This document shows, in pieces, positions 8,281 to 28,128 of a stretch of DNA of 64,000 nucleotides. The position numbers and the translations under genes were made by a program. The stretch is taken from positions 13,096 to 77,095 of the forward strand of contig CANQQR010000001.1 in assembly GCA_947626035.1 (NCBI GenBank). The letters run 5' to 3'. The stretch is from an uncultured Bacilli bacterium (lineage in GTDB: Bacteria > Bacillota_I > Bacilli_A > RF39 > UBA660). The number at the start of each line of letters is the position of its first letter. Position 1 is the first letter of the stretch. The notes beneath the pieces are model-generated. The model did no database searches. It was given only the letters and a program-made list of their open reading frames with translations, and was not told the DNA's origin.

Positions 8281-8356
8281 TAGCGATTTAAAAGGTCTTC
8301 TATTTATATATTATCTAAATTTTTAACATCTGCTTGGAGAATCCATCAGAAAATTT

Positions 8357-9764: not shown

Positions 9765-9934
9765 TTGTTAAAATCTCCTTATCTACTTTTATAAGTTATA
9801 AAAAAATAGGTCAGAAAAATTTTAACATCTTGACCATCTTATAACTTTTCTTCCGACCCCAATCTCTTCATTCGATTTACTTATCATACTTTCGACATCT
9901 TTATATTTGTCCAAAAATTCCAACAAAACAAACT

Positions 9935-10255
9935 TTACCTAGGCATATCACTAAATGACCAATGCTCACCTTCACCATCAGTTAACATTAAGTAACCATA
10001 GTCAATTAACTCATCATAAAAACTCTCAAGTTCCTCCTCAGTCACATTACAGAACTTCATAATCTCTTCATTATCAAGCACATAATCATTATCATCTTCC
10101 AAAACGCCCAAACACATCCATACCTTAAAACCTTCTGTTGATAAAAGCTTCATAGCTATCTTAGTAGCCTGATCGTCAAATATTACTTCTCTCTTATCAT
10201 CACTGAACGCGGTTTGCAGGTTAATGGCGTCTTTGACCTTACTCTTTTTACCCAT
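9935..10255 (-). CDS. Hypothetical acidic protein
   Basis: ORF with GGAGGTGAAGATAG-type RBS on minus strand. Confidence 0.4.
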   Translation of the reverse strand: MGKKSKVKDAINLQTAFSDDKREVIFDDQATKIAMKLLSTEGFKVWMCLGVLEDDNDYVLDNEEIMKFCNVTEEELESFYDELIDYGYLMLTDGEGEHWSFSDMPR

Positions 10256-10722: not shown

Positions 10723-10808
10723 CGCGGTTTCCGGGTCTATGGATGTCAGTGAGGCAACTATAAAACGCCACTAACCCACAGCCCGCGTCTCCTTTCTTTC
10801 TCTTGATG

Positions 10809-10873
10809 AGAGTGAATGCTTGCATTCACTCTTTCTATACTTATATTATAACAAAAATTCTCATCTTTGTCAA
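10809..10873 (-). promoter_or_regulatory. Minus-strand consensus promoter (TTGACA...TTATAATAT) plus leader hairpin agagtgaatgc-N3-gcattcactct
   Basis: Reverse complement of 10845-10873 gives TTGACAaagatgagaatttttgTTATAATATA; hairpin at 10809-10832. Confidence 0.5.
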
Positions 10874-11206: not shown

Positions 11207-11420
11207 TAAATTAACAGACGAGGAAAGAGAAGTTATTGCGGCCTTGGGCAAAATTGCTAAATATACGAAACATCGCAACCTATGTGACGGCCCAAATGGT
11301 ATGTGTATGTTCTGGAATCCTAACGACCGCATTTGTATATTAAGAACCTACGATTGCCCAGAAGCCTGGATTAAAATGTTAGGATTCTACGCAGCTATAT
11401 TAGAGGATGAAGATACATGA
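11169..11420 (+). CDS. Hypothetical small Cys-containing protein
   Basis: ORF overlapping the previous gene by 38 nt. Confidence 0.4.
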   Translation: MMTLTQEQKEAISKLTDEEREVIAALGKIAKYTKHRNLCDGPNGMCMFWNPNDRICILRTYDCPEAWIKMLGFYAAILEDEDT

Positions 11421-11477
11421 TTCATCCTTTATTTTTTAAAAAAATTTTGTTATAATATATATAGAAAGTTAAGGGAG

Positions 11478-12168: not shown

Positions 12169-12735
12169 ATGACAAAGAGTGAGTGGATGACTAAAAATGG
12201 TTTTGATGAAAATGGCCTCACATGGTGCGTCTTTGGAGATAATACCTACTCAATAAAAGACGAATTAAAGGCGCTTGGATGCAAGTATCATCCAATCCTT
12301 CAGTGGCACTCACCTGAACCACTCGATGTACCAACTGGTTATGGGATGTTTTCTCTTAGATTGACAGACGTCGCGGTATGGGATGAGATTAACCAAGCCT
12401 TTTTCTTTACTGAGGATGGTATTACCGCGATAGATGCTAAGTTCGCATCGTACAATGGAACCAGTCTATCACAATTTGTAGGCAAGATTGGTGAGCACCT
12501 TATAGCCACGACCGCGCTTCTCCGCAGTCATCAACTCTATAATTGTCAGTATGGACTTACTAATATTTACACTTTTTCTATTGGTGATGACATTCTTGTT
12601 TGGGTCACATCAACCTCGCCAGATATTTCAGTAGGTGATGTTGTAAGTCTATCTGGTACTATCGTCAAACATGAAGTCCGTAAGGGAACAAAGACAACCC
12701 GCATTTCAAGATGCAAAGTATGTGCAATAGGTTGA
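12169..12735 (+). CDS. Hypothetical protein
   Basis: ORF with AGGAGG RBS. Confidence 0.45.
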   Translation: MTKSEWMTKNGFDENGLTWCVFGDNTYSIKDELKALGCKYHPILQWHSPEPLDVPTGYGMFSLRLTDVAVWDEINQAFFFTEDGITAIDAKFASYNGTSLSQFVGKIGEHLIATTALLRSHQLYNCQYGLTNIYTFSIGDDILVWVTSTSPDISVGDVVSLSGTIVKHEVRKGTKTTRISRCKVCAIG

Positions 12736-12824
12736 GGTCATTCCTCAACCTTTATTTTTTATAAAAATTATGATATAATAATAGTATGATAAAAAAAGAA
12801 GACGAACGAAATAGGTGGTGCTTA

Positions 12825-14734: not shown

Positions 14735-14768
14735 AGAGCAGGGTACATACTCTGCTCTTTATTTTTTA
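14735..14768 (+). terminator. Rho-independent terminator
   Basis: Hairpin agagcagggtacatactctgctct followed by ttatttttt. Confidence 0.55.
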
Positions 14769-14824
14769 AAAAATTTTTGTTATAATATATGTATAAGAAA
14801 GAGTAAATGCAAAACATTTACTCT
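14769..14824 (+). promoter_or_regulatory. Consensus phage promoter (TTTTTAAAAAATTTTTGTTATAATATATGTATAAG) with leader hairpin agagtaaatgc-aaaa-catttactct (14800-14824)
   Basis: TATAAT at 14781-14786; the same promoter family has more than 25 copies in the window; hairpin conserved at 21176-21200, 27926-27951 and 10809-10832. Confidence 0.6.
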
Positions 14825-14843
14825 TAAATGAGAGAGGAGAGAT

Positions 14844-15041
14844 ATGAATATGTTTTATAAATATGTAGTAGAGTTTTATGATGAAGAAGAACTTGATGAT
14901 AATACTGCACATGGCTTGGTATATGGCGAAAATATGGCGGAGGCCGCGCAGAAAGTACTTAACTATTATGATACTGTGTTCCATATCGAAATAGAAGAAA
15001 GCGATTTTGATTTAGTATACGAGCTTGAAGAGGAGGACTAA
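14844..15041 (+). CDS. Hypothetical acidic protein
   Basis: ORF with GAGAGGAGAG RBS. Confidence 0.4.
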   Translation: MNMFYKYVVEFYDEEELDDNTAHGLVYGENMAEAAQKVLNYYDTVFHIEIEESDFDLVYELEEED

Positions 15042-15043
15042 TC

Positions 15044-15262
15044 ATGGCAATTAATCCATACTATCCTTACATGGCTGAAGCGGAAGGATATCTTGATACA
15101 AGAGAAAGTAAGATTAGACGAGTCATCGCTGATGTAAAACGCTATCCTGACCCCGTAATGTCTCAGTCTGCTTTTGAGACTGTGTGTAAACTTAATGGAC
15201 TTAATCCATACAGTCTCTCAGAGCGCGAGCTCCGCAGAATTAAAACCGCGGTTGGTGGCTGA
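15044..15262 (+). CDS. Hypothetical small protein
   Basis: ORF coupled to upstream gene. Confidence 0.4.
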   Translation: MAINPYYPYMAEAEGYLDTRESKIRRVIADVKRYPDPVMSQSAFETVCKLNGLNPYSLSERELRRIKTAVGG

Positions 15263-15461
15263 CTCTTGAAAACTTAAAAAATTTTTGTTATAATATACTT
15301 ATCAAAGGGAAAGAAAGGTAATGTTGGTATAGTGAGCTGGACCGAAGAGTTGTTTTAACTGGGTCGGTTAGACGCCACTTGAAAACTTAAAAAATTTTTG
15401 TTATAATATCTATGTAAACAAACAAACAATATTTATTTATTTATGAAAAGGAGAAATTATC

Positions 15462-15866
15462 ATGGCAGACGTAAAGATGACTAAGAAGGACTGGTTTATG
15501 GCGATTCGTGAGCAGATTGAGACTTCCGACTGGGAGATGGCCGATGCTGCTCTGGAGTGGATTGACAAGCAGGTTGAGTCTCTGAATAACAGAGCTACCA
15601 AGGCTGCTGAGAGAGCCGCTGATAAGAGGGCGGAAGGGGATGCTCTGCGTGAGATCGTTGCTAGTATGGTCACTGACGAGTGGCAGACTGGTGAGCAGAT
15701 TACCGCTGCGGTAGTCGCGACTGGTGAGGATGTAACCAAGGCTAAGGTCGTTGCAAGGCTGTCTCAGTTGGTTAAAAACCATACTGTGGAAAAGGGTTCC
15801 ATCAAGGATGATGGTCGTCGGATTATTGCTTACCGCAATTACACTGGCGAAGCTGAAGAGGAGTAA
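15462..15866 (+). CDS. Early protein, paralog family A (copy 3, most divergent)
   Basis: MADVKMTKKDWF... parallels MADKKVTKKDRY... of 504-923; preceded by two tandem consensus promoters (15270-15305 and 15385-15420). Confidence 0.55.
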   Translation: MADVKMTKKDWFMAIREQIETSDWEMADAALEWIDKQVESLNNRATKAAERAADKRAEGDALREIVASMVTDEWQTGEQITAAVVATGEDVTKAKVVARLSQLVKNHTVEKGSIKDDGRRIIAYRNYTGEAEEE

Positions 15867-15916
15867 TTAGATAAGGGTGGTATTAAACCACCCTTATTAT
15901 TTTAGGAGGAATATAA

Positions 15917-16738
15917 ATGAAGTATTGTGTCTACTATAAGCCAGGCTTCCGCTATGCGAAAGAGGTAGATGAACTTATTATTACATACAATAGACGTGAT
16001 ACTAGCTTACAGGACTTCCTTAGGGAGCATCCAGATCAGCGTATTTTAATCTACGTCGCGGATCCGCAAGATTTTTGGGATAATAAGTGTCAGAACTATT
16101 TTTTTGCTATGCAGAAACAAGGTAATTTTCCAAAATTTGCTTTAGTTTTTCCAAAATACGATGGTGGAATCACAAAAAAAATAATCGAGGCTCTAATTAC
16201 TGATGAAGTAAAAATTCCTTACTTTTTTGAACTTCCTGCAACAAGCTGGGATACGCTACAAGGCTATCTTGATTTAGGTGTTTCTGACGTTTATATCGCG
16301 GAAGAGTTGGGGTTTAGTATGGCGGCGGTCAGCAGAGTTTGTAAAGAACGCGGGTGCCAGGTTAGATGCTACCCAAACGTGGCCCAATCATCATGGACCG
16401 GGACCCCCGCGATGAAAAAATTCTTTATCCGCCCTGAAGATGTTAAAAGATATGAGGAATATGTAGATGTCTTAGAAATTTGGGGCAGATCCGAGTCTCT
16501 TGAGACTATGTACCGCATCTACGCTAAAGATCAAAGATGGGCAGGCCCGCTGAAAGAACTCATTACCTCTTTTGATCCATCTATTGATGTTAATAATGCT
16601 TGCATTGATCACTGGTTTGCTATGCGGCGAATGTCGTGTGATAAGCGATGCAACAAGGGCTATTACTGCGATACCTGCAATGCTATTGTTAAGTTAGCGA
16701 ATGTGTTGGAACAATACAACGTCATTGTGAAAGATTGA
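15917..16738 (+). CDS. Hypothetical protein with C-terminal 4-Cys cluster
   Basis: 273-aa ORF; motif CDKRCNKGYYCDTC; no confident family assignment. Confidence 0.45.
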   Translation: MKYCVYYKPGFRYAKEVDELIITYNRRDTSLQDFLREHPDQRILIYVADPQDFWDNKCQNYFFAMQKQGNFPKFALVFPKYDGGITKKIIEALITDEVKIPYFFELPATSWDTLQGYLDLGVSDVYIAEELGFSMAAVSRVCKERGCQVRCYPNVAQSSWTGTPAMKKFFIRPEDVKRYEEYVDVLEIWGRSESLETMYRIYAKDQRWAGPLKELITSFDPSIDVNNACIDHWFAMRRMSCDKRCNKGYYCDTCNAIVKLANVLEQYNVIVKD

Positions 16739-16902
16739 TTTTTAATAAAAATTTTGTTATAATATATTTATCAAAAGAAACAAAGGAGATAAGAGTAATG
16801 GCGGCTAAGAAAGGTTGGGCAACACCTTTTAATCGTTTTTAATGAAATTTTATATAAAGTATAAAGGAGGATGATATTATAAACTCAGAATATACTTTAT
16901 AT

Positions 16903-17640
16903 ATGCACAGGAATAAACGAAATGGTAAGGTATATATAGGAATAACAAGACAAAATCCACCAGAAAAAAGGTGGGCAAAAGGTAGAGGCTATCATCATAA
17001 TGAATATTTCCGTGCCGCTATTGAAAAAGATGGATGGGAAGAAGGTTTTGAACATATTATTTTAGAGGATCATTTATCTCAAGAAGAGGCTTGTAAAAAG
17101 GAAAAAGAATTAATTAAAGCATATGATGCGACGAATCCAGAAAAGGGTTACAACCTAGCAGATGGAGGCGTTCATCTCGGTCCCACATCTTTTGAAAAAC
17201 TGACAGAATGGCACAACACGCATAAGAAATTTGGTAAAGATAATGTGTCTTCAAAAAGAGTTAGATGTATTGAAACCAATGATGTTTTTGGATCAATATC
17301 TGAAGCTTGTAGATGGTGTGATTCAACAAAAGTTGGAGAGTGTTGTAGAGGACATAGAAAACATGCAGGTACCCATCCTAAAACTGGAATACAATTATCT
17401 TGGGAATACGTGGATGATGATACAGAAGTTACTATAATATGCAATGAACATCAAGATAATGAATACAGATGGAAACCAACAGATAAATACAAGAAAGTTA
17501 TGTGTATAGAGACAGAAGAAGTTTTTAGAACTGAAGCAGAAGCGTGTAAAAAGTATGGGGCAGCGCGAGGAACGATAGGACGTGCATGTTCGGGCAAAAG
17601 AAAAAGTGCTTTAGGAAAACATTGGAAATGGGTAGAATGA
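16903..17640 (+). CDS. GIY-YIG homing endonuclease (free-standing, I-TevI/Seg-like)
   Basis: N-terminal GKVYIGIT...R...GYN...E matches the GIY-YIG core; C-terminal repeated V.CIETN/E.VF.S..EAC.. NUMOD-like DNA-binding modules. Confidence 0.65.
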   Translation: MHRNKRNGKVYIGITRQNPPEKRWAKGRGYHHNEYFRAAIEKDGWEEGFEHIILEDHLSQEEACKKEKELIKAYDATNPEKGYNLADGGVHLGPTSFEKLTEWHNTHKKFGKDNVSSKRVRCIETNDVFGSISEACRWCDSTKVGECCRGHRKHAGTHPKTGIQLSWEYVDDDTEVTIICNEHQDNEYRWKPTDKYKKVMCIETEEVFRTEAEACKKYGAARGTIGRACSGKRKSALGKHWKWVE

Positions 17641-17653
17641 AAGGAGAATAATT

Positions 17654-17977
17654 ATGGTTAAGGGAGCGGTTAGTAAGGAAAAGATTAAGAACAAGATCCT
17701 TGAGGTATTTCCAGGTAGTTTTTTGTATGACGGCGGGAAAGAGATTCGTATTCCGATGATGGAGGATGGAATCCCCGTCCAAATCAAAGTAGGTCTGACT
17801 GCTGCAAAAACTAATGTAGAACCAGAAGGTTTAGGTCCTAGGTCAATGGCAGTAGTTGATTCAATTGGAGCATTTCCAAATATTGAAGCAGAACCGCCTA
17901 AGAATTTTATGAACGAACCCTCTGACGCAGAGAAGGCAACAGTGGCGGAGTTACTGAAGACATTAGGTTTAGCGTAA
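17654..17977 (+). CDS. Hypothetical protein
   Basis: ORF with GGAGA RBS. Confidence 0.4.
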   Translation: MVKGAVSKEKIKNKILEVFPGSFLYDGGKEIRIPMMEDGIPVQIKVGLTAAKTNVEPEGLGPRSMAVVDSIGAFPNIEAEPPKNFMNEPSDAEKATVAELLKTLGLA

Positions 17978-17995
17978 AATAAAGGAGGTTAAGTC

Positions 17996-18289
17996 ATGGC
18001 ACACATTTATCATTTATCTGAGTGGGAGAGCGGTTCCGGTCTTTGGTGGTATTGCGAGGATGTGTCTGACTTAACTGGACCCTCCGCAAAATGGTGGGCG
18101 CCCGCCCGCGTCTTAGGATTATCTCTTACAGACTTTATTCTCTTGTTGAAGGACACATACCACGCTACTATTGGTAAGTATAATCCAGAGACAGATTATC
18201 TTGATATTAAATGGAAGAAGTATAGCGACATGCACAAATATGTGCTTTATGTCAACAAGGTAGCAAGAAATAAAAACTTCTTGGTCTAA
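17996..18289 (+). CDS. Hypothetical protein
   Basis: ORF with AGGAGG RBS. Confidence 0.4.
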   Translation: MAHIYHLSEWESGSGLWWYCEDVSDLTGPSAKWWAPARVLGLSLTDFILLLKDTYHATIGKYNPETDYLDIKWKKYSDMHKYVLYVNKVARNKNFLV

Positions 18290-18375
18290 AGTATTAAATT
18301 GATTTATTCTCTTTTTCAAAAGACATAAAGAGACCAGAACTATAAGGTCTTTAATTTTGAAAGGAGAAAATAATT

Positions 18376-18990
18376 ATGGCATATACTGTTTTGAAAAAGG
18401 AAGGTCAGAAGGGTAATATTGTTCACTTCTTAGCTGACACAACCGCTGACTATGCCTTTATTGTAGATGAATGCGATCCAGGCAGCACTATCATGGTATT
18501 AGATGAGCCAGAAGCAAAAGGTCCAGATACTTATATGAAAGCTCCATCTGGTAAATGGATTCATATAGATGGCCAGGGCGATAAAGGGCTTCCAGTTAAT
18601 AATGCTGTCGTCAAGATTCCCGCAGCTGATGTAATGAGAGGTGGGCTAAAAGTTGGCGATATGCAGAGTAATGTACAGGTTTATGAGAGTGGTCTTGTAA
18701 CTGGCACTGTTCACGCGGTAACTGGTAATACCTTATATAAAGGTACTCCTAATGGACACTTCTTAAACCTTGATATTCCTACGCCAGAAGGTACAGATGT
18801 AAAATTAACCATTAAGACAAATGGTACTAGCGATACTGAAAAGAAGGATCAAACTCCTGATGGCTCTCTATCCATTCGTCTTGAAAACCTAGATGAAAAG
18901 AAAGCGGATACTGTAACTATTGAGTTTAAGGATAGTGAGACTTCAGTAGGCTCTTATACCTTTAACCTATCTCAAATTAAGAGAGACTAA
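18376..18990 (+). CDS. Tandem paralog 1 of 3 (~204 aa), unknown function
   Basis: MAYTVLKKEGQKGNIVHFLADT...CDPGSTI...KAPSGKW...; these motifs recur in the next two genes. Confidence 0.5.
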   Translation: MAYTVLKKEGQKGNIVHFLADTTADYAFIVDECDPGSTIMVLDEPEAKGPDTYMKAPSGKWIHIDGQGDKGLPVNNAVVKIPAADVMRGGLKVGDMQSNVQVYESGLVTGTVHAVTGNTLYKGTPNGHFLNLDIPTPEGTDVKLTIKTNGTSDTEKKDQTPDGSLSIRLENLDEKKADTVTIEFKDSETSVGSYTFNLSQIKRD

Positions 18991-19005
18991 TAGGAGGTAG
19001 ATGTT

Positions 19006-19617
19006 ATGGCTTATAGTATCTTAAAGAAAGATGGTAAGGCTGGGAATATTATTCATTTCCTAGCTGATTCCGCGGACGATTATCCTTTCATCATTGATGT
19101 CTGTGATCCAGGTAGTACAATTACTATTCCGCAGAAAGGCAGCAAGATTATTTATGTAAAAGCACCATCTGGTCAGTGGGTTTGCGTAGAAGGAGAAGGT
19201 GAAGCTTTCCCAGCCAATGACGCAGAAGTTATCGTTCCAGAAGATGACTTTGTTGTCAGCGGAACTGATAGACCTATCAGTGAGTTCCAATCTGATATAC
19301 GTGTATATCCGACAGGTTTAACAACTGGTACTTCTCACTACGCTAAGAATAACGCTCTTTATGGCACAGGCGATGAAGCAAATGGCCACTTTATTGCTTT
19401 TGTTCTTCCGAAGCCTGAAGGCGCGCAGAAAGTTAAGTTAGGATTATCTGGTGAAGGCGCAGCTATTGATATTCCAGATGATGATACTTATATGTTTAGA
19501 CTAGATGAAGCAAGAAAGAATGGTAAGCATACTGCAACAGTAACCTTCTCTGAGAATGGTGGAGATCCTGCTATTGCATCTTTTGCTTTCAATGTATCTA
19601 AGGTAGTTTTTGATTAA
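19006..19617 (+). CDS. Tandem paralog 2 of 3
   Basis: MAYSILKKDGKAGNIIHFLADS...CDPGSTI...KAPSGQW. Confidence 0.5.
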   Translation: MAYSILKKDGKAGNIIHFLADSADDYPFIIDVCDPGSTITIPQKGSKIIYVKAPSGQWVCVEGEGEAFPANDAEVIVPEDDFVVSGTDRPISEFQSDIRVYPTGLTTGTSHYAKNNALYGTGDEANGHFIAFVLPKPEGAQKVKLGLSGEGAAIDIPDDDTYMFRLDEARKNGKHTATVTFSENGGDPAIASFAFNVSKVVFD

Positions 19618-19634
19618 ACGCGGAGGTGACAATT

Positions 19635-20243
19635 ATGGCTTATAGCGTTTTATCAAAAGAAGGTCAGCAAGGAGGCATCATACACTTCCTTGCTGATACA
19701 GATAAAGATATTATATTTATAATTGATGACTGTAACGCAGGTAGCACCATTAGTGTTTTGAAAGAAAAGCCGCATACTTATATGAAAGCACCTAGCGGAA
19801 AGTGGATTTTAGTTAATGGCGATAGCGATTATCAAGTTCCATTCAATAACGCGGAGGTCGAAGTACCTAAAGCAGATGCTAAGTTTAGTGATAAGACCGC
19901 GGCGGACCTTCAAGAGAACATGGTCTTTTATAAAACTGGTTTGGTCACTGGTACACTTAAGAAATCTACCTATCCAGCTATTTATACAGAAGAAGATAAA
20001 AAGAACGAGCAAGATGGCGACACAGGTCACTTCTTCTGTGCTAACTTAAAGACTCCGCCAAAAGCTACAGAGTATAATATGGTTCTCAATGAAGAGACCA
20101 CTGTGAAGGTTAAGCCTGTTGATGACTGGGTTATGGTTTGTATGGAGCATATCCAAGTAAAGGATAAGACCAAGACTGTTAGAATTACATACGATAGCGG
20201 AGAGTCTTTTACTTTTAACTTAGATCATGTTGATTTAGAATGA
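19635..20243 (+). CDS. Tandem paralog 3 of 3
   Basis: MAYSVLSKEGQQGGIIHFLADT...CNAGSTI...KAPSGKW; ATG 19635 after GGAGGTG RBS. Confidence 0.5.
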   Translation: MAYSVLSKEGQQGGIIHFLADTDKDIIFIIDDCNAGSTISVLKEKPHTYMKAPSGKWILVNGDSDYQVPFNNAEVEVPKADAKFSDKTAADLQENMVFYKTGLVTGTLKKSTYPAIYTEEDKKNEQDGDTGHFFCANLKTPPKATEYNMVLNEETTVKVKPVDDWVMVCMEHIQVKDKTKTVRITYDSGESFTFNLDHVDLE

Positions 20244-20293
20244 CGCGGGAACGCGGATATATGACGTCACGGGGCTAGTTTACTAGCCCTTCA

Positions 20294-20367
20294 GGGACCT
20301 TGGCCTAATTGGTTAAGGCATCTGGCTCATAACCAGACGATTCTGGGTTCGAGTCCCAGGGGTCCCA
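20294..20367 (+). tRNA. tRNA-Met/Ile2 (anticodon CAT)
   Basis: Manual cloverleaf: acceptor gggacct/gggtccc, D stem gcct/aggc, anticodon stem tctgg/ccaga with loop ctCATaa, T arm ctgggTTCGAGTcccag. Confidence 0.7.
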
Positions 20368-20386
20368 CTCATAGGGAGGTGTTGAT

Positions 20387-20656
20387 ATGGGTAAATCTTA
20401 TAAAAAGAATCCTTATATCACCCAAGAAAAAGAAAATACTAAATTGCTTAACAGAAGAATAAGGTATGCGAAGCTCTATGAGTTTAATACTCCTGGGTCT
20501 TTTAAGCGTTTTTTCTCTAATTGGGGATACAAGAGTCTATGGACGAAAGAAGATGCAATTGCTTCGTATCTCAAACATCCTGAAAGATATGAAAAGAGTT
20601 TTCCCACGCTTGAAGATTGGCTTGAATACTGGCGGAGATGTGCTTATAGAAAATAG
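20387..20656 (+). CDS. Hypothetical basic protein
   Basis: ORF with GGGAGG RBS immediately after a tRNA. Confidence 0.4.
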   Translation: MGKSYKKNPYITQEKENTKLLNRRIRYAKLYEFNTPGSFKRFFSNWGYKSLWTKEDAIASYLKHPERYEKSFPTLEDWLEYWRRCAYRK

Positions 20657-20919
20657 CGTTTGGGCAAAGTTGATTAATTGATTTTAACAAAAATTTTTGA
20701 TATAATATTTATATGATAAGAAAGGAAAGATGAACAAACGGATCGTAGTAATCTTTCTGTAAATTTTTTCAGACCAGGATCCTCGTCCCTAGCGTGATAG
20801 CCTTGAGCTTCGCGCCAAGGCCGCCATGCGGAAAGGCTGTTAGGAAAAATACTTATCATTTGATTTTAAAAAAAATTTTTGTTATAATATATGTATAAGA
20901 AATAAAGAGGAGAAAACGT

Positions 20920-21120
20920 ATGAAGTCTTATTTTGTTGTGACTTTTGGTTGGGAAGGTCTTGCTAAAAGGCATAAGATGGTAGTCAAGTACTCCGATGAT
21001 TTAAAGCTTTGGTTCTGCTATGATGAAACAACCGAGACATACAGAGGTCCCATGTTTCACTCTTATAACGAACTGTATGACTGGATTAGTGACTATACAT
21101 TAATTCAAGAAGCTGGGTAA
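20920..21120 (+). CDS. Hypothetical small protein
   Basis: ORF behind consensus promoter 20860-20900. Confidence 0.35.
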   Translation: MKSYFVVTFGWEGLAKRHKMVVKYSDDLKLWFCYDETTETYRGPMFHSYNELYDWISDYTLIQEAG

Positions 21121-21452
21121 AAATGCTTCATTGATTTTTTAAAAATTTTATGATATAATATATTTATAAGATGAAAGAGTAAATAAAAAACATTTACTCT
21201 CATAGACACCTTTACAGCAAACACATTTTCACCCCTTTCAGAAAATGATGAATAATTAAGGAGGAAGTGGGATTCCCACATCCAGCAGGCGGTAGATTGA
21301 GTTGTTGAGTCACTTTGTATCCGCTGGTTTTACTTACTTACTAACTACTCACGGGTGTCTAGTGACTCCTGACCTGGCTATGGTGTAATGGCTACGAAGA
21401 AAAGTACAATGGGAGTAAGGAGGAATATACCAGTGAATACTCCTTAAAATCT

Positions 21453-21527
21453 TGGGATGTAGTTCAGTTGGTTGAGAATGTCGCTCTGATAAGGCGAAGA
21501 TCTTGGGTTCAAGTCCCGACGTCCCAA
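21453..21527 (+). tRNA. tRNA-Ile (anticodon GAT)
   Basis: Acceptor tgggatg/cgtccca, D stem gttc/gaat, anticodon stem tcgct/ggcga with loop ctGATaa, T arm ttgggTTCAAGTcccga. Confidence 0.65.
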
Positions 21528-21799
21528 CTAAGGAAGATGCGGTCCCTCTCATCCTATGGCAAAAACAGATGCGGGACATATTATATCAAACGGTAGTTTA
21601 ATAGGTTAGAACAACTTTGAGGTTGGTCCTGGTTCGATCCCAGGTCGTGCGATATAAAAACTTTCATTGACTTTTTAAAAAATTTTTGTTATAATATATA
21701 TGTAATCGGAAAAGCAAAGAATCATCTGAAGGTTCGGCGGTGACGTTCTGCCCTAAACGTAAAACCGAGAGTTCGCAGATCTTGATAAAACTGCGGTTT

Positions 21800-21873
21800 G
21801 GCTCCTTCCTCTAACTGGTTTAGGAGGTCTGCCCCTCACGCAGAGAATATGGGTCCGAGTCCCGTAGGAGTCA
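21800..21873 (+). tRNA. tRNA-Glu-like (anticodon CTC; loop cCCTCAc with C at position 33)
   Basis: Acceptor ggctcct/aggagtc, anticodon stem tctgc/gcaga, T arm atgggTCCGAGTcccgt. Confidence 0.5.
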
Positions 21874-22251
21874 CTAAGGCCCGATGGAGTCCTCACGAGT
21901 CCATCCGCACTAAGCAAAGCGTAAAAGTGCTAGAGGATGAGAAGAAAGATTGGAGGGTTCGATTCCCCCGCTGGCAAGTCTGCTGGTCCTGGGTGTGGTA
22001 ATCTGAAGAATCTCATGAGGTTTTGGATAAAGTAAACTTGGTTGCCGCCTTGTTGAAATTGGATGACCTAATCCTCGTTAGGAGCGGCGGCAACCGCTCT
22101 TAAGAGCCACTTCGACTACGTAGGTTAAGTCGCATCTCTCAATAGGAGAGGGATGAAAGTAAGGTGCAAGTCCTTACAGTGGTATTCGTGTCTTTTTAGA
22201 CACTTTGTCATACCTCTCTTAAAAAAATAAAGGCGGTCTTATGACCGTCAC

Positions 22252-22324
22252 GGTCCCTTCTTCTAAGTGGTCAGGAAGCTAGCCCTTCACGCTAGCAATG
22301 TGGGTCCGAACCCCGCAGGGATCA
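22252..22324 (+). tRNA. tRNA-Glu-like (anticodon TTC; loop cCTTCAc with C33)
   Basis: Acceptor ggtccct/agggatc, anticodon stem ctagc/gctag, T arm gtgggTCCGAACccccg; near-paralog of 21800-21873. Confidence 0.5.
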
Positions 22325-23603
22325 TTGAGTACTTATGTACTCATGAGGTGCGCTCTTGACACCTAAAACAGAGCTGCTTTGTTGGTTTATAAGCCAAAAT
22401 CAACCTCTAGCGGGAGTTCCGTAAGGTCTTTGGTCTTGTCACCGTTTAATTCCAAGACTGCGCTACTGGGTAATGGGATCCCGAAAACCGCGGGCGCTGC
22501 TAAAAACTGCGGAGATGTAGATACCAGTGCTACATAAACTTTGCTTGATATTCAGTTCACGTATCATAACAGATACGTAGGAATATTTGTCTTTCCCTCC
22601 GCTTTGCAGTTTTGGTAGTTTCTGTTTTCAAAAACTACCTATATTTTTCTCTATTGATTTTTAATAAAAATTTTGTTATAATATATACATAAGATAAAGA
22701 AAGAAAGATTTTGGCTGTGTCGTATATAGGTTAATACGTCAGATCATCTCTGAAGACTGAGGTTCAATTCCTCACATGGCTATTTACCGGTTTCGAGCAG
22801 GGTAGCTCCCCGTCAACCGGAAACCACTTACCATTCGGGATTTACGTTAGTAAGAATGGGAGTCCAAAGTACAAGGACTAAGCAAGAAGAATTTCTTGTG
22901 ATTTTCTATTAGAACGGTTTAACCATTTGGCTATCTGGGTTCAATTCCCAGAATAGCTACTCGTGGCTCGGCTGTATCCACGTAAAACATGAGCAGTTAT
23001 TGAGATCTCGACCGCGCACTCGGGCGGTATATAAGCTGACAGGGAGTTTTGATGGGTAAGAAAAATCTCGGAAAATATTGTAAAAATCCATTCGGGATTG
23101 TTGACAGAGGTAGCGACTGTCAGTGGCGTCTCGTGATAAAAGCCACGCGTGAAACTCCTTGGGGAAGTTGCAAATTCCTCATGTAGTCCTTGCTCACAAG
23201 GCGGTTATGCAACCGACTGAATGCTTCGGGACTGGCAGACTCCATGGTATGCTCGCTTGAGAGTGTCTGCTCGCTTAGTCAGAGCGTATAGGTGACAGCC
23301 ATATTGTAAGATGGTTATTTACTTACAACGTACTAGCAGATTTTAACTTCCTGTACGTTAAGCAGGTGGAGCATCAGAAGTATGTTTATAAGACTCCGTA
23401 GATACAGACCTACGTTAAAAAGGTGTCGCGCGGAACCCGACGCAAGTTCGAAATATCGGGCGGCTGTGATGGTAGCAATAGATAGTCGCGAATATCCCAC
23501 CCTTCGTACTGTGCGCGAGGTAAAACGAATCCACAGCGTAATAGTATAAACTTCTTAATACGTTAAGTTAAGTGAAGCCAGAAGTACGTTTTCAAGGCTA
23601 TAT

Positions 23604-23686
23604 GCACATGTGGTGGAATGGCATACACCTGGCACTTAAAATGCCACGGACTTTGGTCCATGCGAGTTCGAGTCTCGCCATGTGTA
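23604..23686 (+). tRNA. tRNA-Leu (anticodon TAA), type II with variable arm
   Basis: Acceptor gcacatg/catgtgt, anticodon stem tggca/tgcca with loop ctTAAaa, variable hairpin cggactttggtcc, T arm gcgagTTCGAGTctcgc. Confidence 0.65.
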
Positions 23687-23962
23687 TTGGGAGAGCATAG
23701 ACTCCTAGACATTCACAGGCTGATATACCCTGCAAAGTATACTCACTTGTCATGAACAGCGCGGTTGGTAGATGAAAATCCATGCAAGAGGAAAGAAGCG
23801 TCCCTATCAACTGCGCTCCTCTCTTTGAGCCTGTACCCGAATTGGCATAGGGACTTTTAAACTTAATAAATTCTTTAAAAATTTTGGGTACGATTAACAA
23901 ATCTTCTTCTTTTAATTTTTAAGTATTTATAGAAAATAAAACAATAAAGGAGAAGATTCGTT

Positions 23963-24706
23963 ATGGCTCAAAGATTAGATATATTAGATCGAAAAGAGGA
24001 CATTTTAAGATGGATTGAGGAAGGTCAACCTAAGACTTATATATGCAAGGAGTTGCAATGTAAGCAAAGTACCCTTAACAAGTATTTAGAAATTATGGGT
24101 ATTGAATATAAGGGTGTATCTGGATATAGAACTCCAGAAAGTAGAGAAAAATACAGTAACTATATTGATGCATTAACCTATATTCAAAGAGATAAAAGTG
24201 TTAAATCTAATACATTAAAGCAAAAATTATTTAGAGATGGTATAAAAGAATATAAATGTGAGTTATGTGGTTTAAATACATGGTTAGATGGGCCAATTCC
24301 TCTGGAACTTCATCATAAAGATGGAAATCACTATAATAATAATTTAGATAACTTACAAATTCTATGCCCTAACTGTCACGCATTACAACCTAATAATAGT
24401 GGCAAAGCGGTAAAGATTAAAGTTAAGGAAAAGGAAAAGAAAACAAAGCCTTGCCCTAATTGCGGAAAACCTATTGGGATAAAATCTAGGTTATGCACAG
24501 AATGTGTTCATAAAGAACAATATGTTTGCGATCATCCGTCAAGAGAAGAATTAAAGCAGATGATTAGAACTGTTCCTTTTGCCCAAATTGGTAGAAAATA
24601 TGGAGTAAGTGATAAAGCAATACCAAAATGGTGTATTAGTTATAATCTTCCAAGTAGAAAAAAAGATATAAATGGCATCTCAGACGAAGATTGGGAAAAA
24701 ATTTAA
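23963..24706 (+). CDS. HNH endonuclease with N-terminal HTH (homing-endonuclease-like, inside the tRNA array)
   Basis: ELHHKDGNHYNNNLDNLQILCPNCH HNH motif; additional CxxC pairs. Confidence 0.6.
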   Translation: MAQRLDILDRKEDILRWIEEGQPKTYICKELQCKQSTLNKYLEIMGIEYKGVSGYRTPESREKYSNYIDALTYIQRDKSVKSNTLKQKLFRDGIKEYKCELCGLNTWLDGPIPLELHHKDGNHYNNNLDNLQILCPNCHALQPNNSGKAVKIKVKEKEKKTKPCPNCGKPIGIKSRLCTECVHKEQYVCDHPSREELKQMIRTVPFAQIGRKYGVSDKAIPKWCISYNLPSRKKDINGISDEDWEKI

Positions 24707-24734
24707 TAGGTAGCTATGCTACCTACCTATCTAT

Positions 24735-24823
24735 GGAGCGGTATCCGAATTTGGCACAGGAGCGTGATTTAGGCTCACGTAGGCTGGATAGGCCGTCTAA
24801 GGGTTCGAATCCCTTCCGCTCTA
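24735..24823 (+). tRNA. tRNA-Leu (anticodon TAG), type II
   Basis: Acceptor ggagcgg/ccgctct, anticodon stem cgtga/tcacg with loop ttTAGgc, long variable arm, T arm aagggTTCGAATccctt. Confidence 0.65.
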
Positions 24824-24987
24824 CTGGTTTACTGAGGGTTCAAGTTCCTCTCGGCCTACTAAATGTGTGAGGTTTGGAATCCTCTTAACTCAACCGAGCA
24901 CCGCATTTAAGTACATTTTTCTTGCAAGAAAATTTATTATTAGATGTGTGGCCTTCTCACATACAGCATATAGGACTAGAAGGCATT

Positions 24988-25059
24988 TACGATATGGTGT
25001 AATAGGTAGCACGTTCTCATGTAGGGAGAAAAGTGAAGGTCCGAGTCCTTATATCGTAG
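24988..25059 (+). tRNA. tRNA-Tyr-like (anticodon GTA), short variable arm
   Basis: Acceptor tacgata/tatcgta (perfect), D stem gtgt/gcac, anticodon stem ttctc/gagaa with loop atGTAgg, T arm aaggTCCGAGTcctt. Confidence 0.5.
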
Positions 25060-25341
25060 TTTGGTGAAAAGATTTCTTGTCAGGGCCGGCTATTAAATTA
25101 GCATAACGACCCTGAGTCCTAGGGACAAGAGTTCTGACTAGCCATTTTAGGGCTGTAAGCTAACTTAGTAGAAGCGCATGCCTGAAGAGCAGGAGGACTT
25201 GGAGCGTAACCAAGATGGCCCATTAGGCGGACCCATGAACACATGAGCGTATATGTTCGCTAAGAAAGTCCTTATATCAGACAAAAGTAGAACAAAACTG
25301 ATAGGGTTTGACCTCAGAATCTACTAATGAGGTCAATATTT

Positions 25342-25427
25342 GACGGGATGGCAGAGCTGGTTTAATGCTCCACACTGCTAACGTGGCGATCCTCACGGGT
25401 CCGAAGGTTCGAATCCTTCTCCCGCCG
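25342..25427 (+). tRNA. tRNA-Ser-like (anticodon GCT), long variable arm
   Basis: Anticodon stem ccac/gtgg with loop ctGCTaa, T arm gaaggTTCGAATccttc; acceptor gacggga/tcccgcc has one A.C mismatch, so boundaries are tentative. Confidence 0.4.
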
Positions 25428-25468
25428 TCTGGACGTAACAGTCCAAGATTATAATAAGGAGCGGCGAA

Positions 25469-27361
25469 ATGAGAAAGAAACAAGTATGTGCGATGTTTCT
25501 CTCTACTAGCCTAACCATTATGCACGTTTGCGCGTGCCCTATGACAATTCTAGCTAATGAATGTTATGACGTTACAAGCTTTGAGGAGTTGCAAAATGCA
25601 ATAATGGAGGCTAATAATGGAGACATCATAAGAATTGTAACAAGAGAACCGCTAGAGATTTCAGATACAATAGATATAGATAAAGAATTAACTATCACTG
25701 GCGGAACTCTAACAAGAGCAGAAGACAAAACAATATTTAATGTAACTGGAGATTTAACCCTTGAAAGCATAAAGCTGCAAGGCACAAGAGAAGAGAAGAC
25801 TTGGACACATTCACCAGTAATTTGCGAAGGTAATCTAACATTGGAAGACAATGTTACGATTACTAATTTTATAGCAAGGCGCGGCGGTGGGTTATACGTC
25901 GCGGGCGGTGGTGATGTAGTTCTTAACCAAGGTTCAAGAATTATTAATAACGAGGTCCATGCAATCGATCGCTATAACATAAGCGATTCCGCGGTTGGTG
26001 GAGGTATTTTTATCGACTCAGGCGGCTCAGTGGAGTTAGAAGGCGGTATTATTGATGGTAATAAAGCTACTGTCGAGAATGCTTATGATCAGGTTGCGAT
26101 AGGCGGCGGTGTTGCTATCAAAGAAGGCGGACGCTTCGTTATGAATGGCGGCTATATTACAAACAATAGCGTCAGTGGATATTATGGAACTGCGGAAGGC
26201 GGCGGTATTGCCGCGGGAAGCGACCACTACTATCCATCATTCGAGGGTCTTGGTACTGTAAGTTCAGATGACTTACAACTTAACGCTGGAACCATAGCGT
26301 CTAATAGCGCAGTCCGCGGAGGTGGTATTTATTATCACTCTGGCGATACTTTATATCTTGCGGACGCCGCTATAACCGACAATGAAGCTAGGTTCGGCGG
26401 AGGTATCTGGTATTGCCAAGTAGGTTATGGGCAGCTGGGTACGTCGCTTCACTTAGGCGGCAACCGCGCGTCTCGATATGGTGATGACCTATACTCTGCC
26501 AATCCTTTTGGTATGTTTGATGGTTATGACTGTGCTTTTGAGATGTCGCTGCCAGATACGACAACGTGGTATGACGATTATACCAATAACAAAATAGAAG
26601 ACATAAATAGATATTTGTATGGCTACGCCATGATATGGTACTGGGGCGTAGCTGATGAAAACTTTACAACATGGCTTGATGAAAACTCTGATCTCAACTT
26701 TCCCCTTGATAGGGAATGGGAGGATCTAGCGCTGAAAGCTGAGAATGGCGTGGACAGTTGGTCACACGCGTTACAAATCAAGAACAATGTGGCGTCACAA
26801 GAAGGCGGTGGCATTGCTTGTAACGGTAGACTAGAAGCGCCAGATAAGGAAGTTCCGCCTCCTCCACCTCCGCCAGCTACTCCAAGTGAGCCTGAGAAGG
26901 AAACAGAGCCAGATATTCCAGTATCTACACCTAGTGAACCTGAAAGAGAAACAAGTACTGAAGAGACTACTGCACCTAGCACCGAGGAAACTACTGAAGA
27001 AGAAACTACTCCACCAACAGAAACAAGTAGTGAGGAATATACCGAACCTAGTATTGAGAAAGAAACCACACCTGCGGAGACAGTTCCTGAAGAGCCAGAG
27101 ACTCCGCCAGATGAGACAACGCCTGAACCTGTGACTCCCACAGAGCCGCAGCCCGCGCCTCCAATTGAGTATTTCCCAGATGAGCAAGTTCCATTAGGTA
27201 GTTTTGAAGCATTCGAGGATGAGGAAGTTCCACTCGCACCTTGGGAAGCACCTAGAACAAGTGATACTAATAAGGCTGCACAAGCTGGTTTCATAGCTTT
27301 GCTTGCTCTTGCTTCAATGACTCTGTTTGGTCATGAGATACGTAAACACAAAGATGATTAA
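25469..27361 (+). CDS. Secreted beta-helix repeat protein (polymorphic-membrane-protein-like GGG[IV] repeats) with Pro/Thr/Glu-rich linker and C-terminal hydrophobic anchor
   Basis: N-terminal signal-like segment; at least 7 repeats such as GGGLYVAGGG, GGGIFIDSGG, GGGVAIKEGG, GGGIYYHSG; PPPPPPATPSEPEKETEP... linker; C-terminal AGFIALLALASMTLFG plus KHKDD; higher GC than flanks. Confidence 0.55.
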   Translation: MRKKQVCAMFLSTSLTIMHVCACPMTILANECYDVTSFEELQNAIMEANNGDIIRIVTREPLEISDTIDIDKELTITGGTLTRAEDKTIFNVTGDLTLESIKLQGTREEKTWTHSPVICEGNLTLEDNVTITNFIARRGGGLYVAGGGDVVLNQGSRIINNEVHAIDRYNISDSAVGGGIFIDSGGSVELEGGIIDGNKATVENAYDQVAIGGGVAIKEGGRFVMNGGYITNNSVSGYYGTAEGGGIAAGSDHYYPSFEGLGTVSSDDLQLNAGTIASNSAVRGGGIYYHSGDTLYLADAAITDNEARFGGGIWYCQVGYGQLGTSLHLGGNRASRYGDDLYSANPFGMFDGYDCAFEMSLPDTTTWYDDYTNNKIEDINRYLYGYAMIWYWGVADENFTTWLDENSDLNFPLDREWEDLALKAENGVDSWSHALQIKNNVASQEGGGIACNGRLEAPDKEVPPPPPPPATPSEPEKETEPDIPVSTPSEPERETSTEETTAPSTEETTEEETTPPTETSSEEYTEPSIEKETTPAETVPEEPETPPDETTPEPVTPTEPQPAPPIEYFPDEQVPLGSFEAFEDEEVPLAPWEAPRTSDTNKAAQAGFIALLALASMTLFGHEIRKHKDD

Positions 27362-27431
27362 TTGATTTTTAATAAATTTTTTGTTATAATATATGTATAA
27401 GATAAAGAAAGAGTAAAAGGAGAAAAACAAA

Positions 27432-27746
27432 ATGTATAAATTCTACGTGACGGACAATAAGGTGATTTGTGTAACTACATATGCTGGCAAGACTGTGCGG
27501 GGCGTCGCTAAGTGTGATCCTAGAGATACTTTTGATGAAGAGTTTGGTAAGTCTCTTGCAAAGGCGAGAGCTGACTTTAAGGTAGCTAATAAGCGATATG
27601 ATAGAGCTATGGCTAAGCTGGATGAAGCTAGAGCCGCGAGTCGTAAAGCATATGATCGGGAAGAGGATATGTGGAACTATTTAGAAAGTGCGGAAGCGGA
27701 GTATAACAGAGCCTTAGAAATTATGGAAGCATATGATAATACTTAA
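27432..27746 (+). CDS. Hypothetical protein
   Basis: ORF behind consensus promoter 27362-27400; terminator hairpin gcggtcttatgaccgc 27746-27761. Confidence 0.45.
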   Translation: MYKFYVTDNKVICVTTYAGKTVRGVAKCDPRDTFDEEFGKSLAKARADFKVANKRYDRAMAKLDEARAASRKAYDREEDMWNYLESAEAEYNRALEIMEAYDNT

Positions 27747-27766
27747 GCGGTCTTATGACCGCGAGT

Positions 27767-27857
27767 GGAGGTGTAAGCCTAATTGGTAAGGCAGCGGTCT
27801 TGAAAACCGCTAGTAACCGCGATGAGCGGCGTCAGAGTTCAAGTCTCTGCGCCTCCG
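27767..27857 (+). tRNA. tRNA-Ser (anticodon TGA), type II
   Basis: Acceptor ggaggtg/cgcctcc, anticodon stem gcggt/accgc with loop ctTGAaa, variable arm ccgcgatgagcgg, T arm cagagTTCAAGTctctg. Confidence 0.7.
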
Positions 27858-28128
27858 TTCAACCAAAGAAAAATATTTGATTTTTAAAAAATTTTATGAT
27901 ATAATATATACATAAGATAAAGAGAGAGAGTAAATGCTTTGCATTTACTCTACAACGGGAGAGATGTGCGGAGTCACGTTTCTTAGGCACGTACAGCAAA
28001 TATACTTTAAGCTTATTAAAAGTATTTTGTCGTTGGTTCGATTCCAACTTTTTCTTAATTGAAAAGTAGCTCAGATGGGAGAGCAATACTCAAAGTTTTT
28101 TGTGCCTAGTAAATATTAAAAGGAGGAA

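What the first reader, a model, noticed from the sequence alone, without database searches (positions are those of the whole stretch)
14769..27951. Conserved leader hairpin AGAGT(A/G)AATGC-loop-GCATT(T/C)ACTCT directly after four promoters
Copies are at 14800-14824, 21176-21200 and 27926-27951 on the plus strand. A fourth is at 10809-10832, serving a minus-strand promoter. Stems are 11 bp with compensatory changes (A/G paired with T/C) and different loops (aaaa, aaaaaa, ttt, ttg). Conservation of the stem with variable loops points to an RNA structural element at the 5' end of a subset of transcripts. It could be a binding site for a phage regulator, an RNase protection cap or an attenuator.
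Basis: seen in the sequence. Interest (0 to 1): 0.5.

Follow-up and report, generated by a model that had tools for sequence, protein, structure and literature searches.

The report
Repeated leader hairpin in phage transcripts
An uncultured large gut phage carries five copies of one 24-25-base palindrome, four just after strong early promoters and three beside small Y-RNA-like genes; it most likely folds as a hairpin in the RNA leader, an ordinary kind of element whose exact job is untested.

Summary
The four palindromes are real and far beyond chance. Each starts 12-21 nt after the -10 box of a highly conserved sigma-A-type promoter, so it would fold about 6-15 nt from the RNA 5' end (dG -8 to -14 kcal/mol).

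- Only two copies fit the 11-bp consensus.
- The "different loops" are point variants of one 7-nt centre, GCAAAGC.
- The four copies show only one compensatory pair.

I found a fifth, diverged copy at 29445-29468. It is not next to a promoter. It lies flush against a small RNA gene, and four outer stem pairs are changed on both sides.

Three of the five copies sit just upstream of members of a covarying small-RNA family (AGRC..ACAGCAA...GYCU). One member resembles Rfam YrlA, and a Ro-like protein gene lies nearby.

The element is specific to this phage. The nearest relative has the same promoter-to-sRNA junction without the hairpin. Other relatives have unrelated hairpins at that place.

Best reading (about 0.45): a cis-acting RNA leader stem-loop that protects or punctuates the 5' end of the downstream RNA. 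The main rival (about 0.2) is a CIRCE-like DNA operator. There is no Rfam match, no terminator tail and no host regulon. Interest is modest.

The parts
10809..10832 (-). Palindrome copy 1. The RNA reads AGAGUGAAUGC-aa-GCAUUCACUCU. It starts 12 nt after the -10 box, about +7 of the transcript.
   Evidence: dG -13.1, z -3.3
10845..10873 (-). Perfect-consensus promoter TTGACA-17-TGtTATAAT driving the leftward operon (small ORFs 10722-10567, 10562-10272 and onward).
   Evidence: 12 of 12 matches, TG present
14800..14824 (+). Palindrome copy 2, AGAGTAAATG-caaaa-CATTTACTCT, plus an A-T pair at 14799/14825. It lies 13 nt after the -10 box (14781-14786). The SD GAGAGGAGAG and the ATG at 14844 follow.
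   Evidence: dG -11.9, z -5.7
21176..21200 (+). Palindrome copy 3, AGAGTAAAT-aaaaaac-ATTTACTCT. It lies 16 nt after the -10 box. With ATGA/TCAT flanking pairs the hairpin spans 21171-21203, flush with the small RNA that starts at 21204.
   Evidence: (dG -8.1, z -3.7)
21131..21159 (+). Promoter TTGATT-17-TGaTATAAT for copy 3.
27927..27951 (+). Palindrome copy 4, AGAGTAAATGC-ttt-GCATTTACTCT. It lies 21 nt after the -10 box, about +16 of the transcript.
   Evidence: dG -13.7, z -4.8
27877..27905 (+). Promoter TTGATT-17-TGaTATAAT for copy 4.
27959..27984 (+). Second leader hairpin of unrelated sequence (GAGAGAUGUG-cggagu-CACGUUUCUU, three G.U pairs), flush with the small RNA that starts at 27985.
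   Evidence: dG -10.5, z -1.9
29445..29468 (+). Fifth, diverged copy, TTGGAAAATGC-tt-GCATTTTCCAA. Its inner 14 nt are shared with the family, and four outer pairs are changed on both sides. It lies about 150 nt after the promoter at 29290, flush with the small RNA at 29469.
   Evidence: dG -10.9, z -3.5
21204..21360 (+). Downstream cargo: a small RNA of the AGRC..ACAGCAA..GYCU family (closing stem AGACACCT/GGGTGTCT), followed by tRNA-Ile at 21453.
27985..28107 (+). Downstream cargo: a Y-RNA-like small RNA (closing stem AGGCAC/GTGCCT). Its interior gives a sub-threshold Rfam YrlA match with T-arm and D-arm mimics.
   Evidence: (34.9 bits, E 3.8e-6, gathering score 69)
29469..29535 (+). Downstream cargo: a 67-nt small RNA of the same family (AGACTCAT...ATGAGTCT), followed by tRNA-Gln.

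Best explanation
The palindrome acts after transcription, as a stem-loop of 9-11 bp in the 5' leader of five RNAs of this phage.

In four cases host sigma-A RNA polymerase starts about 7 nt after the -10 box, so the hairpin forms 6-15 nt from the 5' end. In three cases it, or a partner hairpin, abuts the closing helix of a Y-RNA-like small RNA.

My proposal is that it works in cis as a 5' protective or punctuating structure. The single-stranded purine tail can be trimmed. The base-paired end then denies access to 5'-end-dependent decay enzymes (RppH and RNase J1-type 5'-to-3' exonuclease, which apply if the host is a Firmicute, as the promoters suggest). This gives the downstream mRNA or untranslated sRNA/tRNA precursor a defined, longer-lived 5' end.

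Shown: the palindromes, their positions, the predicted folds, the kept pairing in a diverged copy, and absence from the nearest relative. Inferred: the transcription start sites, the host type, that the RNA and not the DNA is the active form, and the stabilising effect.
For: - All copies lie in transcribed, non-coding leaders in the sense orientation of the local genes.
- The hairpins are stable relative to shuffles.
- The fifth copy (29445-29468) keeps 11 pairs although four outer positions changed on both arms. Five pairs change on both sides, 94.5% of cells are paired, and 0 of 500 shuffles do as well. It lies about 150 nt from its promoter, a poor place for a promoter operator, but exactly at the 5' edge of a small RNA.
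- The hairpins at 21171-21203 and 27959-27984 are likewise flush with small RNAs.
- In relatives, small-RNA genes preceded within 110 nt by this promoter class were examined. Every family-type small RNA with a leader of 36 nt or more has a stable hairpin of unrelated sequence (L070; L131 has two different ones). Leaders of 29 nt or less have none.
- The one change among the four original copies is A-U to G-C, the classical route through G.U.
- The offset from the -10 box varies from 12 to 21 nt.
- Published background (PMC3997798): RppH and 5'-end-dependent RNases need unpaired 5' ends, and 5' structures stabilise RNA.
- Mapped start sites in a Listeria phage with the same promoter type place the -10 motif at -16 to -5 (PMC12282133).
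Against: - No transcript data exist. The start sites are inferred.
- A 6-15 nt single-stranded tail is longer than classical 5'-terminal stabilisers tolerate. This rests on my own knowledge of the E. coli and B. subtilis work.
- Four copies keep near-identical 9-nt arms while their centre varies. This looks like sequence-specific recognition, typical of operators.
- The covariation depends on accepting the fifth copy as homologous, and it was noticed because it is a palindrome.
- Self-complementarity can also be kept at the DNA level by templated quasi-palindrome correction.
- Only 4 of about 25 class promoters carry the element, with no obvious common need.
- Leaders of this promoter class are not generally structured.
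Confidence: 0.45

Rival explanations
1. DNA operator. A dimeric regulator, phage-encoded or host, binds the 9-N6/7-9 inverted repeat on double-stranded DNA at +7 to +40. There it blocks promoter clearance or elongation, so the four promoters form one regulon that can be shut off or timed together.
For: - Four copies have almost identical arms, a freely varying centre of nearly fixed length (6-7 bp), sharp borders and unrelated flanks.
- All four lie next to promoters.
- The architecture matches known start-site-proximal operators: CIRCE TTAGCACTC-N9-GAGTGCTAA and HAIR CTTGAGT-N7-ACTCAAG. HrcA covers the start site (PMC7464140).
- The leftward operon behind copy 1 encodes a protein with weak winged-helix matches (8357-8962), a possible autoregulator.
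Against: - The fifth copy differs at 4 of 11 arm positions, symmetrically, and lies about 150 nt from a promoter.
- The 21176 copy lacks the inner GC pairs.
- Spacing differs between copies (6 vs 7 bp), and the offset from the -10 box varies by 9 nt.
- The symmetric double change in copy 1 is not expected for a contacted base.
- No binding protein has been identified.
Confidence: 0.2
2. Sequence-specific RNA tag. The hairpin in the nascent or mature RNA is bound by a dedicated protein, such as an antiterminator of the lambda N/boxB kind, a processing nuclease or the phage Ro-like protein. Binding marks a set of transcripts for a common fate.
For: - The stem sequence is conserved in four copies.
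- Location in the leader, as for nut sites.
- Three of the five copies lie beside Y-RNA-like genes.
- A Ro-like protein gene lies at 30770-32266.
- RNA-repair-type genes are nearby.
Against: - Loops differ in sequence and size (2-7 nt), whereas hairpin-binding proteins usually read the loop.
- The fifth copy changes the outer stem sequence.
- There is no boxA-like single-stranded partner motif.
- The hairpin lacks the AGRC..ACAGCAA..GYCU-(A/U)G features of the small RNA family.
Confidence: 0.15
3. Functionally neutral or selfish palindrome. A recent inverted duplication of the purine-rich leader (AAGAGTAAAT is leader-like) spread among look-alike promoter cassettes by recombination or gene conversion, and stays symmetric through DNA-level template switching.
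For: - The left arm resembles ordinary leaders. AGAGTAA occurs without a partner in five other leaders of the family, e.g. window 27390 and 16763, and L321.
- The nearest relative lacks the hairpin at the orthologous junction.
- The element is confined to this phage.
- Promoter cassettes offer about 60 bp of homology, as in the PeSL cassettes of T4-type phages (PMC4122927).
Against: - The centre has diverged (about 5 changes and 1 indel in 28 nt) while the arms kept pairing, which suggests selection on the stem.
- Unrelated hairpins recur at the same place in other phages.
Confidence: 0.1
4. Terminator for antisense transcription. Read on the opposite strand, the stem is followed by the pyrimidine complement of the purine leader (UUCUUAU..). 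This would protect the promoters from convergent polymerases.
For: - The scan scores 27951-27927 on the minus strand as terminator-like.
- Family terminators often have AGAG...CTCT stems, e.g. L080 and window 14735.
Against: - Only one of the copies passes the scan.
- The stems are A+U-rich and the T runs are broken.
- No convergent promoters or genes are evident on the opposite strand in 11-31 kb.
Confidence: 0.03

Closest known systems
5'-terminal stabiliser stem-loops of bacterial mRNAs (E. coli ompA and papA leaders; B. subtilis ermC/aprE-type 5' structures)
   Same: A short stable hairpin near the 5' end of a transcript, upstream of the SD, with no U-tail. It acts in cis by blocking 5'-end-dependent decay (review PMC3997798).
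   Different: Here the hairpin is predicted 6-15 nt from the 5' end rather than at it. It is repeated with the same sequence on several transcripts, and it precedes untranslated small RNAs and tRNAs as well as mRNAs. No stabilising effect has been measured.
CIRCE/HrcA and HAIR/HspR operators
   Same: Inverted repeats of 7-9 bp with a 7-9 nt spacer, several copies per genome, lying at or just after the start site of sigma-A promoters (PMC7464140).
   Different: The sequences are unrelated (AGAGTAAAT-N7-ATTTACTCT against TTAGCACTC-N9-GAGTGCTAA and CTTGAGT-N7-ACTCAAG). The element is in a phage, not in chaperone operons. One copy is far from a promoter and has altered arms. No repressor is known.
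PeSL promoter-early/stem-loop cassettes of T4-type phages
   Same: Small conserved regulatory cassettes that combine an early promoter and a stem-loop, repeated through a region of small variable genes (PMC4122927 and PMC2839356).
   Different: In a PeSL the stem-loop is a terminator upstream of the promoter. The window has such terminator-promoter fusions (14735-14786, 12729-12779), but the hairpin studied here lies downstream of the promoter and has no T run.
Lambda nut boxB hairpins
   Same: Near-identical hairpins in the leaders of a few early transcripts of one phage.
   Different: boxB is read through its conserved loop and works with a boxA motif and the N protein. Here the loops vary and no boxA-like motif or N-like protein is evident. 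This comparison rests on my own knowledge.

Membership tests
Intrinsic terminator / attenuator | G+C-rich stem followed directly by a U-tract on the transcribed strand | tested here: not met
   The stems are followed by UAAAUG, CAUAGA, ACAACG and CAUCAA. The scan lists none on the sense strand.
CIRCE (HrcA) or HAIR (HspR) operator | Match to TTAGCACTC-N9-GAGTGCTAA or CTTGAGT-N7-ACTCAAG | tested here: not met
   Arm sequence and spacer differ (consensus from PMC7464140).
Generic dimer-bound DNA operator | Conserved half-sites at fixed spacing | tested here: inconclusive
   The arms are identical in three copies, but spacing is 6 or 7 bp and a fifth copy has 4 of 11 arm positions changed.
Generic dimer-bound DNA operator | A cognate DNA-binding protein | not testable with these tools
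   There are only weak winged-helix candidates (8357-8962, 9935-10255). Binding cannot be tested here.
5'-terminal stabiliser stem-loop | Stem-loop at or within a few nt of the RNA 5' end | tested here: inconclusive
   The predicted 5' tail is 6, 6, 5-10 and 15 nt if the start lies 7 nt after the -10 box. The start sites are not mapped.
5'-terminal stabiliser stem-loop | Lengthens the half-life of the downstream RNA | not testable with these tools
   Needs decay measurements with and without the stem.
RNase III processing site (T7 / SP82 early RNA type) | About two helical turns (about 20 bp) of double-stranded RNA | tested here: not met
   The stems are 9-11 bp. The length requirement rests on my own knowledge.
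Lambda-type nut site | Conserved loop plus a boxA-like single-stranded motif nearby | tested here: not met
   Loops are tt, ttt, caaaa and aaaaaac. The flanks share no motif beyond the purine leader.
PeSL cassette | Terminator stem-loop immediately upstream of, and fused to, an early promoter | tested here: not met
   The hairpin lies downstream of the -10 box. True terminator-promoter fusions exist elsewhere in the window (14735-14758, 12729-12751).
AGRC..ACAGCAA..GYCU small RNA family (Y-RNA-like) of this phage group | 5' AGRC-N4-6-ACAGCAA box, complementary 3' closing strand ending GYCU, then (A/U)G | tested here: not met
   The hairpins start AGAG or TTGG, have no ACAGCAA box and are followed by UAA, CAU, ACA or AGA.
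Any Rfam family | Score at or above the gathering threshold | tested here: not met
   Only tRNAs pass in the window. Permissive scans around all four copies give nothing relevant.

The most novel reading that the evidence does not exclude
The hairpin is a phage-specific RNA 'address tag'. A trans-acting phage factor would recognise it, for example the Ro-like protein or an RNA-repair or processing enzyme encoded nearby. That factor would couple a chosen set of early transcripts, including the Y-RNA-like small RNAs, to a common processing or quality-control pathway.
Probability: 0.1. Interest if true: 0.6.

Novelty: new member of a known kind. Interest (0 to 1): 0.33.

Why it matters
If the hairpin is a 5' protective or punctuating structure, it shows how a large gut phage tunes the output of otherwise near-identical strong promoters. 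It would also show how the phage sets the ends of untranslated RNAs inside a tRNA and small-RNA array. Such an element could serve as a portable RNA-stability part for Firmicute hosts.

If it is an operator, it defines a small early regulon in an uncultured phage lineage. Either way the element is lineage-specific and of a familiar type.

The more valuable by-product is the surrounding set of covarying Y-RNA-like genes next to a Ro-like protein.

Tried and rejected
- **Same element elsewhere.** Exact-motif scans of IMG/VR and of GTDB genomes gave only single, unrelated hits: terminators, coding DNA and diverse taxa. There is therefore no sign of a host regulon or a dispersed mobile element.
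- **Covariance models.** Models built from four and from five copies found no homologue in about 1.5 Mb of related phage loci. The best hits were terminators in front of promoters.
- **Closer relatives for covariation.**
  - INPHARED megablast and tblastn found none.
  - IMG/VR and JGI loci are at most 70% identical in the Ro-like protein.
  - In the 5.8-billion-protein search, the next protein after the identical one is 65% identical.
  - The two ENA contigs are the same phage at 99.9-100% identity.
- **Leader peptide.** An ATG lies in the stem of three copies but not in the 21176 copy, and the reading frames are inconsistent. Rejected.
- **Site-specific recombination site** (lox/dif-like arms plus spacer). 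The spacers differ between copies and no recombinase domain was found among the window proteins scanned. Rejected.
- **Known host operators** (LexA, Rex, CcpA, TnrA and others, recalled from memory). No match.
- **A general trait of this promoter class.** Leaders are on the whole unstructured (mean -3.5 kcal/mol against -2.8 for shuffles; 17 of 349 at or below -10). Hairpins are therefore a minority feature.
- **Repeated palindromes in other loci**. These turned out to be coding repeats or belong to unrelated phages.
- **The palindromic core at 16595.** It lies inside a gene and does not fold.

Full report
**Setting**

The window is part of a large uncultured phage. It has 17 tRNA genes between 20.3 and 30.7 kb. 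It also encodes topoisomerase II subunits, a DnaB-like helicase, PhoH, an RNA-ligase-like OB-fold protein (PHA02142 family), a kinase-like AAA_33 protein and a Ro-like RNA-binding protein.

Nothing close exists in INPHARED. Two short ENA contigs are the same phage. The nearest other relative is only 65% identical in a neighbouring protein. Distant relatives (30-70% amino-acid identity) occur in rumen, deer and human gut metagenomes.

The genome is peppered with one promoter type: TTGAtt, a 17-bp A/T spacer, TGnTATAAT and then ATATryATAAGA. About 25 copies lie in the window, 13 of them between 10 and 31 kb. Relatives share this promoter type. Several of these promoters are fused to an upstream terminator.

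**Checking the observation**

The four palindromes exist at 10809-10832, 14800-14824, 21176-21200 and 27927-27951.
- AGAGTRAAT-N-ATTYACTCT matches only these four sites, against none in shuffles.
- Allowing three mismatches adds nothing.
- Each starts 12-21 nt after a -10 hexamer, and the 10809 copy serves the single leftward promoter.
- All four fold well as RNA: -8.1 to -13.7 kcal/mol, z -3.3 to -5.7.

Several details in the finding are overstated.
- Only two copies fit the 11-bp consensus.
- The centres are variants of one heptamer, inverted in the 27927 copy.
- One compensatory pair among four sequences is not significant.
- Similarity ends at the borders of the palindrome. Apart from the promoter itself, the flanks are unrelated.

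**A fifth copy and the small-RNA context**

Sequence downstream of two copies shares a box, GGCACnnACAGCAA. Following this up showed a family of small RNA genes with the form 5'-AGRC-N-ACAGCAA ... GYCU-(A/U)G-3'.
- There are 74 distinct instances in the window and related loci.
- 61 of them have an exact 6-nt closing complement within 35-250 nt. A control using the stem of another instance gives a mean of 4.
- Seventeen different closing-stem sequences occur, which is strong covariation.
- The median length is 75 nt.
- Some members carry T-arm and D-arm mimics and give sub-threshold Rfam YrlA hits.

The window has members at 21204-21360, 27985-28107, 28503-28572 and 29469-29535. The Ro-like gene at 30770-32266 follows the array. 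The Listeria phage List-36 shows the same layout, with ACAGCAA boxes just upstream of its Ro-like gene. A published transcriptome of a related Listeria phage reported abundant unexplained RNAs at that position (PMC12282133).

Immediately 5' of the 29469 small RNA lies TTGGAAAATGC-tt-GCATTTTCCAA (29445-29468).
- It has the size and loop of the 10809 copy and the inner 14 nt of the family.
- Four outer pairs are replaced on both arms.
- With it, five of the eleven pairs show double changes and no shuffle does as well.
- One caveat applies: I noticed this copy because it is a palindrome.

This copy is about 150 nt from its promoter. The extended 21171-21203 hairpin is also flush with its small RNA. 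So is a second, unrelated hairpin at 27959-27984.

**Comparison with relatives**

The AGAGTAAAT palindrome occurs in no relative.

In the nearest relative (L320) the orthologous promoter runs into the orthologous Y-like RNA through a 20-nt unstructured purine leader. The hairpin is therefore a recent insertion in this lineage.

Small-RNA genes preceded within 110 nt by this promoter class were then compared across the group. Among the family-type small RNAs, every leader of 36 nt or more contains a stable hairpin, and leaders of 29 nt or less contain none. The hairpin sequences are unrelated between phages, and L131 has two different ones.

Leaders of this promoter class are otherwise unstructured.

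**Interpretation**

Four observations point to a structure that matters in the RNA:
- pairing is kept in a diverged copy;
- that copy lies away from a promoter;
- several hairpins abut small-RNA helices;
- unrelated hairpins recur at the same place in other phages.

A terminator or attenuator is excluded because there is no U-tract. RNase III sites, nut sites and all Rfam families do not fit. The most economical function is a 5' barrier. RppH and 5'-dependent nucleases need unpaired ends, and 5' structures stabilise RNA (PMC3997798). This would suit both the two mRNA leaders and the untranslated small RNA/tRNA precursors. I put this at about 0.45.

The main rival is a DNA operator, at about 0.2.
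- For it: near-identical arms with a free centre, close to start sites, are exactly how CIRCE and HAIR look (PMC7464140). A weak winged-helix protein is encoded in the operon behind copy 1.
- Against it: the fifth copy, the 6/7-bp spacing, the variable offset and the lack of any multi-copy host genome.

A sequence-specific RNA-binding partner (0.15) and a neutral, recently spread palindrome (0.1) remain open. For the latter, the left arm resembles ordinary leader sequence. Homologous promoter cassettes could also spread such an insert, as proposed for PeSLs (PMC4122927).

**Verdict**

The repeat is real and lineage-specific, and most likely a leader stem-loop of a familiar kind. The choice between RNA and DNA action needs an arm-swap experiment and 5'-end mapping. 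Interest is modest. The neighbouring small-RNA family is the more notable result.

Noticed in passing
window 21204-21360, 27985-28107, 28503-28572, 29469-29535; also L046, L070, L131, L150, L158, L320 and others: A multi-copy small RNA family, 5'-AGRC-N4-6-ACAGCAA ... GYCU-(A/U)G-3', interspersed with tRNA genes and often directly behind the strong promoters. Of 74 instances, 61 have an exact closing complement (control mean 4), with 17 different stem sequences. Some members carry tRNA-like arms and give sub-threshold Rfam YrlA hits; the short ones match no Rfam family.
   Followed up: partly
window 30770-32266 (+): A 498-aa protein (phrog_850, Pfam DUF2828 plus DUF7788) that is 34-36% identical to proteins annotated 'Ro-like RNA binding protein' in mycobacteriophages. 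It also has homologues in Listeria, Enterococcus and Felix-O1-like phages. It ends the tRNA/small-RNA array, as in Listeria phage List-36, where three ACAGCAA boxes lie just upstream of the gene (L319 4171, 4260, 4329).
   Followed up: partly
window 14735-14786, 12729-12779, 11410-11456, about 41240-41284: Terminator hairpins whose T run doubles as the A/T-rich upstream and -35 part of the next promoter. These are compact terminator-promoter cassettes, reminiscent of the PeSLs of T4-type phages.
   Followed up: partly
all class promoters, e.g. window 14787-14799, 27906-27917: The first 12 nt after the -10 box are conserved (ATATryATAAGA) across the whole phage group. They contain a second -10-like hexamer (TATAAG) around the predicted start. 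This could be a preferred initial transcribed sequence or a sigma-dependent pause signal. Not examined.
   Followed up: no
window 4447 and 2825 (- strand promoters); also 444 and 4632 (+): A different promoter type (TTGACA..TGGTAyAAT) followed at once by G+C-rich hairpins (CGGCACGCG..CGCGTGCCG). There are also two near-identical plus-strand promoter-leader units. These may be further small RNA genes.
   Followed up: no
window 10787-10800 (- strand), after copy 1: A strong SD-like run (GAAAGGAGA) about 10 nt after the hairpin has no usable start codon behind it (GTG GGT TAG). The first ORF starts about 65 nt further on with a weak SD. This resembles the STAB-SD/polypurine 5' stabilisers of Bacillus, a comparison from my own knowledge.
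   Followed up: no
window 8001-10000: G+C content drops to 0.29, against about 0.39 around it. The stretch carries a GIY-YIG endonuclease gene (9165-9764). Further homing-endonuclease-type genes lie at 16903-17640 (GIY-YIG) and 23963-24706 (HNH) inside the early and tRNA regions.
   Followed up: no
L046 5852-6477 (-): A distant relative carries a full-length ROOL RNA (RF03087, 323 bits) inside its tRNA/small-RNA array, directly after one of the ACAGCAA small RNAs. The window itself has no ROOL match.
   Followed up: no
window 37775-42481: A cluster of RNA-repair-type genes: a nucleotidyltransferase, a metallophosphatase, a PHA02142 OB-fold protein that may be an RNA ligase (my reading; the domain hit does not name it), and an AAA_33 kinase-like protein. 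It lies downstream of the tRNA/Ro-like region.
   Followed up: no
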